Sequence record: OL656110.1
From: Escherichia phage vB_EcoM-RPN242
DNA length: 64,000 bases
Direction: 5' to 3' (one strand)
The notes below the pieces were generated by a model. That model ran no database searches, was not told where the DNA came from, and worked only from the letters and a program-made list of their open reading frames with translations. Each line of letters opens with the position of its first letter. Within the stretch, counting starts at the first letter, position 1. This document shows, in pieces, positions 24,783 through 36,244 of the stretch. Made by a program: the position numbers and the translations under genes.

Positions 24783-25382
24783 TCATTTCGGCGCGATCCA
24801 CCCCAATTCCTTGACCATCGTTACATTTCGACATATGCCTAACCTGGCACCATCGGCTACCCACCAATCATAGAATATTCCTGCCAAAGCCCAATATTTG
24901 CGGGTATGCGTCGCATTTGGACTTTCCCAAGGCTTTGAATGGATTTGTTTTAATTTGGAACGTTGTGAATCTGATTTGGGTCTGCCCATCAGCGAATCGG
25001 AAATTTTCGATCTGTGTTCACGGGATAACGCCACCCCCTTGAATCTTTCACTGCATTTTTGTTTAAACTCTGGAGTGCTGTTAGCTGTCTTCACCCTTTC
25101 CCATTTTCTGAGAGCGAACTCTTCGTATTGGCGTGAAGTTTGTGATTTTGATATATTTCTCATCAAAGAAAAGATTTTCACGTATGCAGGAGACATACTG
25201 AATATCTTGGCCAAAAGTTTGTGAACTATGAAATGTTCCCGAGCAGTTAGAACAGCAATATTCTCCGCAGTATCAGCCCCTCCCAAGCTCCTGGGTTCTT
25301 TATGGTGTCTTTCTGAATACCCAATCAGATTGCGAGAATAAGACCTTTCAAGGATAGAAACCAACGCTCGGGTATAGTTCAT
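24783..25382 (-). CDS. HNH homing endonuclease with NUMOD-like motifs
   Basis: HNH core ERHHKEPRSLGGADTAENIAVLTAREHFIVH; C-terminal PWESP...YWALAGIFYDWW parallels ORF 8421-9251. Confidence 0.75.
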   Translation of the reverse strand: MNYTRALVSILERSYSRNLIGYSERHHKEPRSLGGADTAENIAVLTAREHFIVHKLLAKIFSMSPAYVKIFSLMRNISKSQTSRQYEEFALRKWERVKTANSTPEFKQKCSERFKGVALSREHRSKISDSLMGRPKSDSQRSKLKQIHSKPWESPNATHTRKYWALAGIFYDWWVADGARLGICRNVTMVKELGWIAPK

Positions 25383-25858: not shown

Positions 25859-26074
25859 TCACCCCTTCAGTTCGATTTTCAGGTCATCAACATAACAACC
25901 CGTCTCTGTGTCCCAGATCTCAATACTGAAATGCTGGGTCGCCACTTTTGGGGTAAATCCCCAGGCCTCTGCTTTCTCAAGAAAGGAGTTTTGGGCGTCC
26001 TCTGGCGTCCCGGACACGGATTGAACCTGTAGACCGTCACACCCATCATGATACTGCAGCAAATACACTTTCAT
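25859..26074 (-). CDS. hypothetical protein
   Basis: 71-aa ORF; ATG overlaps ligase stop (TAATG). Confidence 0.45.
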   Translation of the reverse strand: MKVYLLQYHDGCDGLQVQSVSGTPEDAQNSFLEKAEAWGFTPKVATQHFSIEIWDTETGCYVDDLKIELKG

Positions 26075-27498
26075 TATGCAGACTCCAGCAGGAATACAAT
26101 GTTTTCGATGTATGCTTTCTGAATCGCATAGACTTCATCCAGTGTGTTGGCCACTTTCTTGTCAATGCGGACTTCTACAAGGCGAGGTAGGAACAAAGAC
26201 TTCATCGCATCATCTGTCTTATCCTGTACGCCATTGGAGAGCACTGCGGCGATCTTGCCAATGTAGTCGCCCTGGTTCTCCCACATATGGCGTCTCAGCT
26301 CATCTGAGATCCCTGATACACCAACAACAAGCAAGCCATCGGAAGTTTTACAAATCAGTGAGCCAAAAGTCTTGGCGTGTTTACCCTTCTTGTCGGCCTC
26401 GTTGAAGCCCACGATTTCAAGGTCACACTCAACCTCCATCTTCAGCTTCAGACCTTCAGAAGAAGTCCCATCTTCCCAAGGCATGTCGGCGGCCTTACAT
26501 ATCGTGCCTTCTTCTTTGCGAGCCAGCGCGTCTTTGAAGTGGTCGACGGCTTCGGCAAATGAGTGAACAACGCGGGTTTCTTGAACCTGAACCAGACCGT
26601 CGTCTTCATCAAACAGTTGCTGGATAATATCGAAGCGGCGCTCATACGGGGTGTCCACGCGCTGGGCGTTGAACCAGTTGTCGTACGGGATAACATCCCA
26701 CACCCGGTAGATCACCCGATAACGATCTTCCAGGGGTTCTCCTGTCTGAATCACGCTGTTGAGTTTACCGTTACCGACAGCACGAGGCAGGATGGTATTC
26801 GACTTGAGGTCAACAACGAGAAGTTCACCATGGAACACACTCTCACCAATCCCCGCATCGTAGATCAGGTCTTTGAACACCAGTGAAAGGTTATCAACCG
26901 AACCACCTGCGATAAGGGAACCGGAGCGAGAGCGAATCTCAGGCTCTTTATTGTACCGACATATGATGTTGGCGAACATACCGTCTGACTTCAGCTGGCT
27001 GTAGACGCCGCGCTTGAAGTCCATCTTCTTCAGCAGGTCAATCGTCATGTTGTCATAACGATGATACGGAAGAATGTTGATCAGGCGTCCAGTGCCTCCG
27101 GCGGCGTTGAATGCAGCGTTGATGCCCTTCTCTGCGATACCCGCCTTGATATCACGGTCTAGGATCATCTGAATGAGTTCGTGGTATTGGGGATCCATCT
27201 TCAGGGCGACAGAGGCCAACAGGGCATCAGCCTTTTGGCCACCGACAAGGCGCTGTGCCATCTGGTCGAGGACGTCATAGACTTCGCTGATGTCATCAGT
27301 CTTCTCACGGACGAGCATGCGAGGGTACGCGCTGAGCTTCAACTCAGTCCGATAGAACGACGTCATTGGGTCATAGACATATTGCAGGAAGTCTGCCAAG
27401 TCTGGGTTGTTCTTGAATGCTTCGGTCAGCACAGCTTTCTTCGCATTGCTGCCTTTGGTTTCGCGAAGTCGGTGGACTATTTCAAGGATAGGGATCAT
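26074..27498 (-). CDS. 30: ATP-dependent DNA ligase (gp30-like)
   Basis: 474 aa; adenylation motif I LKSDGMFANI (KxDG); N-terminus resembles T4 ligase; SD GGAGG. Confidence 0.85.
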   Translation of the reverse strand: MIPILEIVHRLRETKGSNAKKAVLTEAFKNNPDLADFLQYVYDPMTSFYRTELKLSAYPRMLVREKTDDISEVYDVLDQMAQRLVGGQKADALLASVALKMDPQYHELIQMILDRDIKAGIAEKGINAAFNAAGGTGRLINILPYHRYDNMTIDLLKKMDFKRGVYSQLKSDGMFANIICRYNKEPEIRSRSGSLIAGGSVDNLSLVFKDLIYDAGIGESVFHGELLVVDLKSNTILPRAVGNGKLNSVIQTGEPLEDRYRVIYRVWDVIPYDNWFNAQRVDTPYERRFDIIQQLFDEDDGLVQVQETRVVHSFAEAVDHFKDALARKEEGTICKAADMPWEDGTSSEGLKLKMEVECDLEIVGFNEADKKGKHAKTFGSLICKTSDGLLVVGVSGISDELRRHMWENQGDYIGKIAAVLSNGVQDKTDDAMKSLFLPRLVEVRIDKKVANTLDEVYAIQKAYIENIVFLLESA

Positions 27499-27505
27499 GT
27501 GGTGC

Positions 27506-27542
27506 CTCCAGGGTTATATGTGCTGCTATTATAACCCTGGAG
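27506..27542 (-). promoter_or_regulatory. 13-bp perfect hairpin sequestering the ligase SD
   Basis: CTCCAGGGTTATA / TATAACCCTGGAG arms with 11-nt loop; CTCC arm is the complement of the ligase SD GGAG on the mRNA. Confidence 0.45.
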
Positions 27543-27621
27543 ACTTCAATATATTATCAGGGAACGGATCCCAGCACTCAGCGACGGTATACAGAACAAC
27601 CAGTTGATAAACTTTATCATG

Positions 27622-27834
27622 TCACTTCCTCATCAGTGAGAGCAGATTGACCGTAGCCGGACGCGCATCAGGGGCGTAGAAGACGTCCTGAGAGTGCCTC
27701 TTACAGCACGGGCAATCCTTCGTGGCGATTACACAGGGAGCCTTGTCCACGGCAAATCCAGCGGCTTCGGCTTCCTTCACAGTGGTGAATGGCAGGTAAG
27801 CACTTGTGCCCTGCCCTCCGCATGAACATTCCAT
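27622..27834 (-). CDS. hypothetical Cys-rich small protein
   Basis: ATG 27834 (track start is in-frame TTG 27837); SD AGAGGA; CSCGG...CPCCKRH. Confidence 0.45.
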   Translation of the reverse strand: MECSCGGQGTSAYLPFTTVKEAEAAGFAVDKAPCVIATKDCPCCKRHSQDVFYAPDARPATVNLLSLMRK

Positions 27835-27950
27835 CAACGTTTCCTCTTAAAGGGGATGACCAGGGCTATGATGAGAAGCATAGCTGTAATCATCCCACAT
27901 GCTATCAGACCAAAGGCGAACGACTTCAGAACAAACTCAATCAAATTCAT
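27834..27950 (-). CDS. small hydrophobic peptide (38 aa), not in ORF track
   Basis: own translation MNLIEFVLKSFAFGLIACGMITAMLLIIALVIPFKRKR; SD GAGGA; ATGA overlap upstream and TGATG overlap downstream. Confidence 0.35.
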   Translation of the reverse strand: MNLIEFVLKSFAFGLIACGMITAMLLIIALVIPFKRKR

Positions 27951-29140
27951 AATTTCCTCAATTTGGCTCTGGTGACCTGAGTTTGTTTAACGCCGTTGTA
28001 CTCAGTCAGTTCTTTGACACGACCACGGATGATCATATCGCCCTGCAAGAACTCTGTATCCATATAAGAGGTCTTCCAGGTAATTGTATTGCCTTCTGCT
28101 GTTTTGAAAGTAAACAGGTAGCTATCACCATATTCATTGGAGAAGAGGAAGGTGCGCTTGTCGAACCTGACTTGCACTTCCAGCATTTCACCGACTTCTC
28201 CCACCCATTTGTTCTCCGCCTTGCGGTCAGTACGAGGACGATGGATGTAATCGTAATACTTCTTGGCACCCCAGCGGACTGTGTTGTTATCCTTGATGAG
28301 GTGATAGCCGGGTTCACACATGCGTTTCAGGCGAACATTGAACTCATTAGATTCAGACAGTGCACTGATGAAGAGCTTCATATGGTACATTTCCGACTCG
28401 GCGTCTTCACGGTATTCGTGTGCCTTGTTTACGAAATACTCTTCATCGGAACCTGCTTTTGGTTTCTGGTGAGACCGGACATAGCCCAGTACTTTGTCAA
28501 ACAGTTCAGACTTGATATCCACGCCTGCCAGCATCACCTGGAAGCATGCGCGCAGGAAACTGTGGGTGTCGACGAAGCGCTCATTTTGGACGCGATATAT
28601 ACCCTCTGGGTCGTCCTCGTCTGGCATGAAGAACTCTTGGATTTCCAGATAGTAAGACATAATCGCATCAAGCGATTTCTGATGAGGCACATAATGATGC
28701 ATACAGGTGCTACCAATCAGCATCTGGGTATGCGTTTCCTCATTTTCAATCACATACGTGTTCTTGCGACGGATGGCTAGATTGCAATGCTGACACCAAG
28801 AGACGTTCTCTGTCTCGAAGCGACGGATGAAGTCAGGATTGATGTTGTCGGACAGGCGGTTAAGAATAACCTTTGGATATTCGTGATTGAACTGACCGAT
28901 GATCTTCCAGCCACCATAAGAGATGGGGCGGTCAATGCCTTCGCCTTCGAGAGTAACAGGTTTCCACCAGTGAGTAAGGATCTCACCAGTGAAGTCGCGG
29001 GTGTGGGTTTTGAAGGGTTCACCATAAGTCACAGTCGGAAACGGAACACCCAACCTTTCGGCAGTGCGCTCGAGCTTCTTCAGTCGCTCAACTACCAACC
29101 CTTCATTGTCGATCGGAATATTGAATGTTTTGACGTTCAT
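27947..29140 (-). CDS. hypothetical protein (397 aa)
   Basis: ATG 29140 with SD GAGG (track start 29173 is TTG); lies downstream of gp41 where T4 has primase, but no primase motifs seen. Confidence 0.5.
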   Translation of the reverse strand: MNVKTFNIPIDNEGLVVERLKKLERTAERLGVPFPTVTYGEPFKTHTRDFTGEILTHWWKPVTLEGEGIDRPISYGGWKIIGQFNHEYPKVILNRLSDNINPDFIRRFETENVSWCQHCNLAIRRKNTYVIENEETHTQMLIGSTCMHHYVPHQKSLDAIMSYYLEIQEFFMPDEDDPEGIYRVQNERFVDTHSFLRACFQVMLAGVDIKSELFDKVLGYVRSHQKPKAGSDEEYFVNKAHEYREDAESEMYHMKLFISALSESNEFNVRLKRMCEPGYHLIKDNNTVRWGAKKYYDYIHRPRTDRKAENKWVGEVGEMLEVQVRFDKRTFLFSNEYGDSYLFTFKTAEGNTITWKTSYMDTEFLQGDMIIRGRVKELTEYNGVKQTQVTRAKLRKL

Positions 29141-29221: not shown

Positions 29222-29248
29222 GTAAAAGCCCAGTACTTGACTGGGCTT
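29222..29248 (-). terminator. rho-independent terminator
   Basis: 9-bp stem AAGCCCAGT/ACTGGGCTT, 5-nt loop, U-rich on minus strand; 18 nt after stop of ORF 29266-29580. Confidence 0.45.
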
Positions 29249-29265
29249 CTTGGTGTTCGATTGAC

Positions 29266-36169: not shown

Positions 36170-36244
36170 AAACTGCTCCAATAAACAAAAGGAGCTGCTA
36201 TTATAGCAGCCCCTTCATCTATTGAACAGTTTCTGAACTTAAAT

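What the first reader, a model, noticed from the sequence alone, without database searches (positions are those of the whole stretch)
27622..29140. Three-gene translationally coupled cassette with a 38-aa membrane peptide
A 397-aa unknown protein, an unannotated 38-aa hydrophobic peptide and a 70-aa Cys-rich protein are linked by ATGA and TGATG overlaps, each with its own SD. Tight coupling suggests a stoichiometric complex, possibly a membrane-associated module.
Basis: seen in the sequence. Interest (0 to 1): 0.5.

Follow-up and report, generated by a model that had tools for sequence, protein, structure and literature searches.

The report
Phage replication-operon segment with split ligase domain
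The three overlapping genes are real, conserved genes in the DNA replication/repair operon of an Ackermannviridae phage. They encode a DNA-binding-type protein of a very large uncharacterised family, a tiny membrane peptide, and a zinc-binding mini-protein that other phages carry as the front end of their DNA ligase. This is an ordinary operon segment with one useful new functional link, not a demonstrated three-protein membrane complex.

Summary
On the minus strand, a 397-aa gene (29140-27947), a 38-aa gene (27950-27834) and a 70-aa gene (27834-27622) are joined by ATGA and TGATG overlaps, each with a GAGG Shine-Dalgarno sequence. The window is an Ackermannviridae phage, about 98% identical to Escherichia phage A221.

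All three genes are conserved. The peptide is annotated in many relatives and is under strong purifying selection (dN/dS 0.08).

Coupling is not special here: 21 of 61 same-strand gene pairs in this genome region overlap or abut.

The 70-aa protein has an invariant Cys4 site (CxC...CxxC). It is homologous to residues 1-72 of the 565-aa DNA ligase of Miltonvirus phages. It is also fused to the ligase in Kujavirus and Vibrio phage SUMAE, and lies just upstream of the ligase elsewhere. It is therefore a detached ligase accessory domain.

The 397-aa protein belongs to a huge family with no Pfam model (8,519 clusters). It has a zinc site and a C-terminal OB fold, and it sits in replication/recombination modules. 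Distant members lack both small partners.

A membrane ORF follows the 397-aa gene in every Ackermannviridae genus examined, for unknown reasons.

Verdict: an ordinary operon segment with modestly novel parts. Biochemical functions are inferred, not shown.

The parts
27947..29140 (-). 397-aa protein of PHROG 2319: N-terminal alpha/beta domain, zinc site (C116, C119, C146, H149; H118 and R125 also conserved), helical domain, and a C-terminal OB fold (about residues 315-397).
27834..27950 (-). 38-aa single-pass membrane peptide (MNLIEFVLKSFAFGLIACGMITAMLLIIALVIPFKRKR). ATGA-coupled to the 397-aa gene.
   Evidence: PHROG 6569, E 1.5e-26. Hydropathy 2.74. dN/dS 0.08 against CBA120. Positional equivalents in Taipeivirus, Kuttervirus, Miltonvirus and Nezavisimistyvirus.
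27622..27834 (-). 70-aa Cys4 zinc-binding mini-protein (C3, C5, C41, C44 invariant). It is a free-standing copy of the N-terminal extension of Ackermannviridae ATP-dependent DNA ligases.
   Evidence: PHROG 4789, E 1e-44, plus a weak hit to positions 1-67 of PHROG 114 'ATP-dependent DNA ligase'. 44% identity, E 9e-22, to residues 1-72 of the phiMAM1 ligase. Also fused in phage 3M, Kuja and SUMAE/VPALA. Invariant residues. dN/dS 0.11-0.21.
27546..27620 (-). 24-codon remnant of a fourth coupled gene (124 aa in A221). It was truncated by a deletion of about 740 bp that also removed a 113-aa gene.
   Evidence: Alignment with A221. Translations of the intact relatives.
27504..27544 (-). 15-bp stem-loop just upstream of the ligase start. 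Its 3' arm contains the ligase Shine-Dalgarno sequence GGAGG.
   Evidence: RNA fold: dG -24.6 kcal/mol, z -4.55. Contains TATAATAGC, found only twice in the window.
26074..27498 (-). 474-aa ATP-dependent DNA ligase (T4 gp30-like). It is the likely functional partner of the 70-aa protein and corresponds to residues 87-558 of the fused phiMAM1 ligase.
   Evidence: Pfam DNA_ligase_A_M, E 1.4e-15. 53% identity to phiMAM1 ligase residues 87-558.
29224..29250 (-). Terminator-like hairpin followed by UUUUACUU. It lies between the upstream 104-aa regulator gene and the 397-aa gene and may mark the 5' boundary of the transcription unit.
   Evidence: dG -16.1 kcal/mol, z -4.27.

Best explanation
The cassette is a stretch of the phage's DNA replication/recombination/repair operon. 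The gene order is UvsX-like recombinase, gp41-like helicase, two small genes, the 397-aa gene, the 38-aa gene, the 70-aa gene, [two genes deleted here], DNA ligase, then the helicase loader. It is packed with the stop/start overlaps that are routine in this genome. The three products are best read as two separate functional units.

(a) The 70-aa protein is a Cys4 zinc module. In sister lineages it is the N-terminal domain of the ATP-dependent DNA ligase. Here it is made as a separate polypeptide and most likely works with the ligase encoded downstream, as a DNA- or partner-binding accessory subunit.

(b) The 397-aa protein is a non-enzymatic nucleic-acid-binding factor, with a zinc site plus a C-terminal OB fold, from a very large uncharacterised phage family. 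It probably binds single-stranded or branched DNA during replication or recombination.

In Ackermannviridae only, the 397-aa gene is followed by a coupled membrane ORF whose role is unknown.

**Shown:** gene reality, conservation, purifying selection, the split-versus-fused ligase relationship, the OB fold in the model, the invariant Cys pattern, and the gene context.

**Inferred:** zinc binding, DNA binding, cooperation of the 70-aa protein with the ligase, and any role of the peptide.
For: - **Identity and context.** The window is 98% identical to Ackermannviridae phage A221 and has the same gene order.
- **Split versus fused ligase.** The 70-aa protein aligns to residues 1-72 of the phiMAM1 ligase (44% identity, E 9e-22). 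The window ligase aligns to residues 87-558 (53% identity).
- **Other fusions.** The same domain is fused in Serratia phage 3M, in Kujavirus Kuja (574 aa; residues 96-574 match the window ligase, E 5e-64), and in Vibrio phages SUMAE and VPALA.
- **Free-standing but adjacent.** It is directly upstream of the ligase in Erwinia phage Bue1 (40 nt) and Vibrio phage K471 (2 nt).
- **Database and literature traces.** There is a weak hit to the first 67 positions of PHROG 114 'ATP-dependent DNA ligase'. FrontPhageNews annotators labelled the homolog 'DNA ligase', and Operon-mapper placed the 397-aa gene through the ligase in one operon (PMC10892097, supplementary file 4).
- **Cys4 site.** C3, C5, C41 and C44 are invariant across all lineages.
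- **397-aa protein.** The model is confident (pLDDT 89). Its C-terminal OB fold matches RPA, SSB and the RecG wedge. C116, C119 and C146 are invariant; H118, R125, W355, K376, Q386, T387 and R391 are nearly invariant; no acidic residue is invariant.
- **Neighbours in 30 distant loci.** These are Cro/CI-type regulators, SNF2 helicases, NAD-dependent DNA ligases (3 loci), DnaB and a topoisomerase.
- **Shorter structural relatives** are annotated as ssDNA-binding proteins.
- **Coupling is the genomic default**.
- **Purifying selection** acts on both small genes.
Against: - No biochemical or interaction data exist for any of the three proteins.
- Residues 1-310 of the 397-aa protein match nothing in the PDB above the OB-fold hits. 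The 'non-enzymatic binder' reading rests only on the absence of conserved acidic residues.
- There is a weak PADLOC hit of the zinc region to the HNH nuclease PtuB (E 0.007).
- The phage already has a gp32-type single-stranded DNA-binding protein, so a second single-strand binder needs a distinct role.
- The recurrent membrane ORF after the 397-aa gene is not explained by this model. A second membrane ORF precedes the Cys domain in Miltonvirus, Bue1 and K471 and is likewise unexplained. Both would fit a membrane-linked function.
- The Cys domain matches no known zinc-finger family, so its role with the ligase rests on guilt by fusion only.
Confidence: 0.6

Rival explanations
1. One reading: the 397-aa, 38-aa and 70-aa products assemble in fixed stoichiometry into one membrane-associated complex, and translational coupling sets the ratios.
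For: The overlaps and individual Shine-Dalgarno sequences are real. The exact trio with the same overlaps is kept in Aglimvirinae and in Taipeivirus. Membrane ORFs flank both soluble partners in several genera.
Against: Coupling is common in this genome: 21 of 61 pairs. The trio is broken in Kuttervirus by an inserted gene, and in Miltonvirus, Kujavirus and Nezavisimistyvirus the Cys domain travels with the ligase. None of 30 distant family loci has either partner. The peptide has only about 6 non-membrane residues at its C-terminus.
Confidence: 0.08
2. Two-component reading: the 397-aa protein and the membrane peptide form a lineage-specific functional pair, for example by anchoring or regulating the DNA-binding protein at the inner membrane. 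The Cys protein belongs to the ligase.
For: A membrane ORF is ATGA-coupled or lies within 30 nt of the 3' end of the 397-aa homolog in six Ackermannviridae lineages, although the membrane-ORF sequences are unrelated between genera. Sizes are 38 aa (Aglimvirinae, Kuttervirus, Taipeivirus), 30 aa (Miltonvirus), 105 aa (Bue1) and 129 aa (K471). Purifying selection acts on the peptide.
Against: Conserved gene order within one virus family can be plain inheritance. Small membrane ORFs are abundant throughout these early regions. No distant family member has one.
Confidence: 0.17
3. The 397-aa protein is not a replication factor. It is instead a host-takeover or counter-defence protein, or a nuclease, that happens to sit in the early region.
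For: Distant homologs are often solitary genes among small early ORFs, on the opposite strand to their neighbours. There is a weak hit of the zinc region to the Septu HNH protein PtuB (E 0.007). The family has no characterised member.
Against: No invariant acidic or His-Asn-His catalytic pattern is present. The OB fold is most similar to RPA, SSB and the RecG wedge. Neighbours are enriched for helicases, ligases and replication regulators.
Confidence: 0.12
4. The 38-aa ORF is a chance open frame, or merely a spacer that passes ribosomes from the 397-aa gene to the 70-aa gene, and its peptide has no function.
For: It is very short, and several GenBank records do not annotate it.
Against: dN/dS is 0.08 with pS 0.62 against CBA120. 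Length, hydrophobic core and basic tail are retained at only 45% identity in Taipeivirus. It has a dedicated PHROG.
Confidence: 0.03

Closest known systems
ATP-dependent DNA ligase of Miltonvirus/Kujavirus phages (phiMAM1 gp164, 3M_170, Kuja gp124): T4 gp30-type ligases with an N-terminal Cys4 extension
   Same: The 70-aa protein is homologous to their first ~72 residues (44% identity, E 9e-22). The window's 474-aa ligase is homologous to the remainder (53% identity).
   Different: Here the domain is a separate polypeptide encoded upstream in the operon. It has no nucleotidyltransferase or OB domain and so is not itself a ligase. The function of the extension is unknown even in the fused enzymes.
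Zinc fingers of cellular DNA ligases (the PARP-like zinc finger of eukaryotic DNA ligase III; the Cys4 finger of NAD-dependent LigA). Recalled from general knowledge; used as an analogy only.
   Same: A small zinc-binding module attached to a DNA ligase, plausibly helping with DNA or nick engagement.
   Different: No sequence or profile similarity was detected to any Pfam or PDB zinc finger. The Cys spacing (CxC...CxxC) and the N-terminal position on a T4-type ligase differ.
OB-fold single-strand or branched-DNA binders (RPA DNA-binding domains, bacterial SSB/PriB, RecG wedge domain)
   Different: There is no sequence-level membership in any Pfam OB family. It is unrelated to the phage's own gp32-type protein (hhalign probability 0.15). 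About 310 additional residues (alpha/beta domain, zinc site, helical domain) have no structural match.
PHROG 2319, 6569 and 4789 (hypothetical proteins of Ackermannviridae, e.g. AG3 gp050/049/048 and CBA120 gp046/-/gp044)
   Same: Full-length, high-scoring members. The trio is already present in more than 270 deposited phage genomes.
   Different: No difference in kind. In this window two downstream genes are deleted, which brings the 70-aa gene to within about 125 nt of the ligase gene.

Membership tests
   ATGA at 27950-27947 and TGATG at 27836-27832. GAGG lies 5-8 nt upstream of each start.
   21 of 61 co-directional pairs overlap or abut in the equivalent 50 kb of A221. These include unrelated enzymes such as thymidylate synthase, dNMP kinase and dUTPase.
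   The trio is kept in Aglimvirinae and Taipeivirus. It is interrupted in Kuttervirus. The Cys domain is fused or adjacent to the ligase in Miltonvirus, Kujavirus and Nezavisimistyvirus. In 30 distant loci neither partner is present.
   Needs co-purification, two-hybrid assays or multimer structure prediction.
ATP-dependent DNA ligase (70-aa protein as part of it) | Homology to a segment of bona fide ligase polypeptides | tested here: met
   E 9e-22 to residues 1-72 of the phiMAM1 ligase. The same domain heads the 3M, Kuja and SUMAE/VPALA ligases.
ATP-dependent DNA ligase (70-aa protein as part of it) | Nucleotidyltransferase domain with the catalytic lysine motif | tested here: not met
   The 70-aa protein has no Pfam DNA_ligase_A_M match. 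The catalytic domain lies in the separate 474-aa gene. The 70-aa protein is therefore an accessory module, not a ligase.
ATP-dependent DNA ligase (70-aa protein as part of it) | Encoded next to, or in the same operon as, the ligase | tested here: met
   Same strand, about 125 nt upstream in this window. It is 2-40 nt upstream in K471 and Bue1. An operon prediction appears in PMC10892097.
Cys4 zinc finger / zinc ribbon | Four invariant metal-ligand residues in two short pairs | tested here: met
   C3, C5, C41 and C44 are invariant across 12 sequences from 6 lineages.
Cys4 zinc finger / zinc ribbon | Match to a described zinc-finger family or solved structure | tested here: not met
   No Pfam hit. 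The best PDB profile hit is the PerR zinc site at E 0.1. The NCBIfam 'sunset' hit scores 14 bits, below its cutoff of 27.
Cys4 zinc finger / zinc ribbon | Actual zinc binding | not testable with these tools
   Needs metal analysis of purified protein.
OB-fold nucleic-acid-binding proteins (397-aa protein) | Five-stranded OB barrel | tested here: met
OB-fold nucleic-acid-binding proteins (397-aa protein) | Sequence membership in a curated OB/SSB family, or relationship to phage gp32 | tested here: not met
   No Pfam or NCBIfam hit. hhalign against the window's gp32-like protein gives probability 0.15.
OB-fold nucleic-acid-binding proteins (397-aa protein) | Binding of ssDNA or RNA | not testable with these tools
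   Needs gel-shift (EMSA) or fluorescence-anisotropy assays.
HNH / His-Me finger nuclease (397-aa protein, zinc region) | Conserved catalytic His...Asn...His/Asn on a beta-beta-alpha metal finger | tested here: inconclusive
   There is a weak PADLOC PtuB hit (E 0.007, 14 bits). H118 is nearly invariant, but no conserved Asn/His/Asp triad and no invariant acidic residue appear in 102 sequences.
Small phage membrane proteins (38-aa peptide) | One hydrophobic span long enough to cross the membrane, with flanking basic residues | tested here: met
   19-residue Kyte-Doolittle mean of 2.74 and a C-terminal KRKR. The same design occurs in four genera.
Small phage membrane proteins (38-aa peptide) | Evidence that the ORF is translated and selected | tested here: met
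   dN/dS is 0.08 at pS 0.62 against CBA120. This shows selection only. Translation itself was not observed.

The most novel reading that the evidence does not exclude
The phage makes a two-piece DNA ligase, in which the free 70-aa Cys4 protein is a trans-acting subunit. The 397-aa zinc/OB protein and its coupled membrane peptide form a previously unrecognised accessory system that brings nick sealing or recombination intermediates to membrane-associated replication sites. The 8,500-cluster family would then be a new, widespread class of phage replication/repair factor that partners with ligases; both ATP- and NAD-dependent ligases occur as neighbours.
Probability: 0.12. Interest if true: 0.6.

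Novelty: new variant of a known kind. Interest (0 to 1): 0.35.

Why it matters
Two things are useful beyond this window.

1. **A function lead for a small protein.** A 70-aa 'hypothetical protein' present in about 280 Ackermannviridae genomes can now be tied to the DNA ligase. It is the same domain that heads the ligase in Miltonvirus, Kujavirus and some vibriophages, and no Pfam or PDB family covers it. This gives a testable accessory-subunit hypothesis for T4-type ligases, which are important biotechnology enzymes.

2. **A large unstudied family.** The 397-aa protein belongs to one of the larger uncharacterised phage families (8,519 clusters at 50% identity). It has a confident model, a zinc site, an OB fold and a replication-module context, which makes it a good candidate for experimental work.

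The translational coupling itself, the core of the original finding, is ordinary for this genome.

Tried and rejected
- **Family libraries.** Pfam, NCBIfam and PADLOC scans of all three proteins gave nothing above threshold. Pfam on ten longer or distant family members also gave nothing.
- **PDB sequence searches.** Searches with the single sequences and with profiles A4 and A5 gave only insignificant hits: L36-like CxxC, PerR, thioredoxin.
- **Foldseek.** Against BFVD it returned only uncharacterised proteins, plus two shorter proteins annotated 'ssDNA binding protein'. The AFDB50 library was unavailable.
- **gp32 paralog hypothesis.** Rejected (hhalign probability 0.15).
- **Word-indexed protein search.** Using the deep alignment, it added only 5 distant proteins, none named.
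- **The search for related loci.** It failed on A4 and A6 because no conserved stretch was found. I replaced it with a degenerate DNA motif scan. With A5 it recovered only close Ackermannviridae relatives.
- **Promoter scan.** No promoter of 9/12 matches or better was found upstream of the cassette. A by-eye 8/12 candidate (TTTACT-17-TAATAT) was not pursued.
- **Literature.** Three searches found no description of either family. One paper's supplement shows only that annotators called the 70-aa homolog 'DNA ligase'.
- **Clamp-binding idea.** The hydrophobic tail after the Cys domain (VNLLSLM) might be a clamp- or partner-binding peptide. This was considered and left as untested speculation.
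Full report
**1. Observation**

- The 397-aa ORF starts at ATG 29140 and ends at TGA 27949-27947. GAGG sits 6 nt upstream of the start.
- The 38-aa ORF starts at ATG 27950, inside an ATGA overlap, and is preceded by GAGGAA.
- The stop of the 38-aa ORF (TGA 27836-27834) shares its last base with the ATG of the 70-aa ORF (27834-27622). That start is preceded by AAGAGGAA.
- The peptide MNLIEFVLKSFAFGLIACGMITAMLLIIALVIPFKRKR has a 19-residue hydropathy mean of 2.74 and a basic tail.

**2. Source and annotation**

The region is 97-98% identical to Escherichia phages A221, YX22 and AV101. It is 88-90% identical to Agtrevirus phages such as AG3 and SKML-39 (Ackermannviridae, Aglimvirinae).

All three genes are annotated in A221 and AG3, and the peptide is labelled 'putative membrane protein'. 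They correspond to PHROGs 2319, 6569 and 4789, all of unknown function.

The surrounding operon runs: UvsX-like recombinase, gp41-like helicase, two small genes, the cassette, DNA ligase, then a gp59-like helicase loader.

A terminator-like hairpin (29250-29224) precedes the cassette.

**3. Is the coupling special?**

It is not. In the equivalent 50 kb of A221, 21 of 61 same-strand neighbour pairs overlap or abut. Eleven have exactly the -4 or -1 geometry, including pairs of unrelated enzymes.

A fourth gene is also coupled (GTGAcATG). In this window it is a 24-codon remnant (27620-27546). A deletion of about 740 bp removed most of it and all of the next gene, compared with A221, AG3 and CBA120.

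**4. Are the small ORFs real genes?**

Both are under purifying selection.
- Against Kuttervirus CBA120, the 38-aa ORF has pS 0.62, pN 0.10 and dN/dS 0.08.
- The 70-aa ORF has dN/dS 0.11-0.21.
- In Taipeivirus (Klebsiella phage May) the same ATGA / 38-aa / 1-nt-overlap / 70-aa layout persists. Peptide identity is only 45%, but length, hydrophobic core and basic tail are kept, and the record does not annotate it.

**5. The 70-aa protein**

*Known families.* It matches nothing significant in Pfam or the PDB.

*First clue.* There was a weak hit to positions 1-67 of PHROG 114, 'ATP-dependent DNA ligase'.

*Split versus fused.* Translation of the Serratia phage 3M and phiMAM1 ligases (565 aa) shows an N-terminal extension: MECACGAHAKREYQRYTTIEDAEKA...VPCVVITDDCPSCRRHS.... 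This aligns with the 70-aa protein at 44% identity (E 9e-22). The window's 474-aa ligase aligns with residues 87-558 at 53% identity.

*Where the domain sits in other lineages:*

| Lineage | Arrangement |
|---|---|
| Miltonvirus (3M, phiMAM1) | fused to the ligase N-terminus (565 aa) |
| Kujavirus Kuja | fused; 574-aa ligase, residues 96-574 match the window ligase at E 5e-64 |
| Vibrio phages SUMAE / VPALA | fused |
| Vibrio phage K471 | free-standing, 2 nt upstream of the ligase |
| Erwinia phage Bue1 | free-standing, 40 nt upstream of the ligase |
| Kuttervirus, Aglimvirinae, Taipeivirus | free-standing, a few genes upstream of the ligase in the same operon |

*Metal site.* Across all of these lineages C3, C5, C41 and C44 are invariant, together with G6, P33 and Y53. 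This defines a CxC...CxxC metal site.

*Published trace.* One annotation already labels the Kuttervirus homolog 'DNA ligase' and predicts one operon from the 397-aa gene through the ligase (PMC10892097, supplementary file 4).

*Conclusion.* The 70-aa protein is a detached ligase accessory domain, not a partner defined by the cassette. What the domain does is inferred by analogy only. The candidates are DNA or nick engagement, or partner binding through the conserved hydrophobic tail VNLLSLM / GLLSLL / GILQLF.

**6. The 397-aa protein**

*Family size.* The word-indexed search found only 20 relatives. The exhaustive profile search found 8,519 representative clusters at E<=1e-3 and 4,351 at E<=1e-10. 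Nearly all are full-length, at about 370-430 aa. None has a Pfam domain.

*Distribution.* tblastn shows the family in Ackermannviridae, KVP40-like and other T4-like phages, jumbo phages, and actinobacteriophages. Annotations are almost always 'hypothetical' and once 'DNA binding domain protein'.

*Structure model.* With a 102-sequence alignment the AlphaFold2 model reaches pLDDT 89.3 and pTM 0.71. It contains:
- an N-terminal alpha/beta domain (residues 1-110);
- a zinc knuckle, beta-hairpin and helix unit;
- a helical domain (residues 157-300);
- a C-terminal OB barrel (residues 319-396).

*Conservation over 102 sequences.* C116, C119 and C146 are invariant. H118, R125, G143, W355, K376, Q386, T387 and R391 are nearly invariant. 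No acidic residue is invariant. This argues for a binding protein rather than a metal-dependent enzyme. The fourth zinc ligand is probably H149 here and Asp in the family consensus (CLKD). This is my inference from the CxxH/D spacing at the start of a helix.

*Other tests.* It is not a gp32 paralog. A weak PtuB/HNH hit (E 0.007) is unconfirmed.

**7. Do the partners travel with the 397-aa family?**

A degenerate DNA motif scan of IMG/VR returned 80 loci, 71 with a family ORF. I analysed 30 non-redundant ones.
- None has a short hydrophobic ORF within -10 to +25 nt of the stop.
- None of the loci contains a Cys-domain ORF (A5 HMM, E<=1).
- Their five nearest genes (139 proteins) most often encode Cro/CI-type regulators (7), SNF2 helicases (5) and NAD-dependent DNA ligases (3, including one 294 nt downstream on the same strand). 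DnaB, an AAA_24 ATPase and a topoisomerase also occur.
- Two further distant homologs are solitary genes on the opposite strand to their neighbours.

The family therefore acts autonomously and sits in replication/recombination modules, with a minor recurrent link to ligases of either cofactor type.

**8. The membrane ORF**

Within Ackermannviridae, every genus examined has an ORF with an N-terminal transmembrane segment at the 3' end of the 397-aa homolog.

| Lineage | Membrane ORF | Position relative to the 397-aa homolog |
|---|---|---|
| Aglimvirinae, Kuttervirus, Taipeivirus | 38 aa | ATGA overlap |
| Miltonvirus | 30 aa | 3 nt downstream |
| Bue1 | 105 aa (unannotated) | ATGA overlap |
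| Vibrio phage K471 | 129 aa | 30 nt downstream |

Sources.

A second membrane ORF precedes the Cys domain in Miltonvirus, Bue1 and K471.

This recurrence is the strongest point in favour of some membrane connection. It could equally be inherited gene order in regions rich in small membrane ORFs, so I leave it unexplained.

**9. Verdict**

The 'stoichiometric three-protein membrane complex' is not supported.

The best reading is an ordinary replication/repair operon segment containing:
- (i) a member of a very large uncharacterised family of zinc/OB nucleic-acid-binding proteins;
- (ii) a conserved lineage-specific membrane peptide;
- (iii) a split-off Cys4 accessory domain of the phage DNA ligase.

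The ligase link is new as far as the libraries and literature searched here show, but it is modest in scope. All biochemical functions remain inferred.

Noticed in passing
window 27546-27620 (-), junction near 27555/27556: About 740 bp present in A221, AG3 and CBA120 are missing here. A 124-aa gene is truncated to a 24-codon remnant (MIKFINWLFCIPSLSAGIRSLIIY*) and a 113-aa gene is lost entirely. This brings the 70-aa gene close to the ligase gene.
   Followed up: partly
window 27504-27544 (-); also 36197-36205 (-): A 15-bp hairpin (dG -24.6 kcal/mol, z -4.6) buries the ligase Shine-Dalgarno sequence GGAGG in its 3' arm and carries TATAATAGC at its loop. The only other TATAATAGC in the window also sits inside a GC-rich hairpin, followed by TTTTGTTT. 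Miltonvirus has GGGGTATAATAGCCCCAG after its membrane peptide. This may be a recurring promoter/terminator or translational-control element.
   Followed up: partly
window 29224-29250 (-): An 11-bp hairpin followed by UUUUACUU (dG -16.1 kcal/mol, z -4.3) lies between the 104-aa 'transcriptional regulator' gene and the 397-aa gene. It looks like an intrinsic terminator and suggests the cassette starts a new or attenuated transcription unit.
   Followed up: partly
L008 (CBA120) ~2185-2301; L095 (Klebsiella phage May) 2691-2807; L096 (Erwinia phage Bue1) 2331-2648: The 38-aa peptide gene is unannotated in CBA120 and May. A 105-aa ORF with an N-terminal transmembrane segment, ATGA-coupled to the Bue1 homolog, is also unannotated.
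   Followed up: yes
L008 (CBA120) 2301-2501: Kuttervirus has an extra 66-aa, very basic, Cys-containing gene (orf060). It is inserted between the membrane peptide and the Cys4 protein and is coupled to both (TAATG and a shared base).
   Followed up: no
relatives of window 27947-29140 (FrontPhageNews, STP55, allotria): HNH or homing endonuclease genes are annotated immediately next to the 397-aa or 70-aa homologs in several Kuttervirus genomes. This intergenic spot appears to be an insertion hot spot.
   Followed up: no
window 24783-25382 (-): A 199-aa ORF downstream of the ligase region contains an HNH-like stretch (GYSERHHKEPRSLGG...NIAVLTAREHFIVH), judged from the sequence alone. It is probably a homing endonuclease.
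   Followed up: no
L013 3926-5812 (IMG/VR contig, 171 kb): A distant member of the 397-aa family is followed, 294 nt downstream on the same strand, by an NAD-dependent DNA ligase. NAD-dependent ligases were among the five nearest genes in 3 of 30 distant loci.
   Followed up: partly
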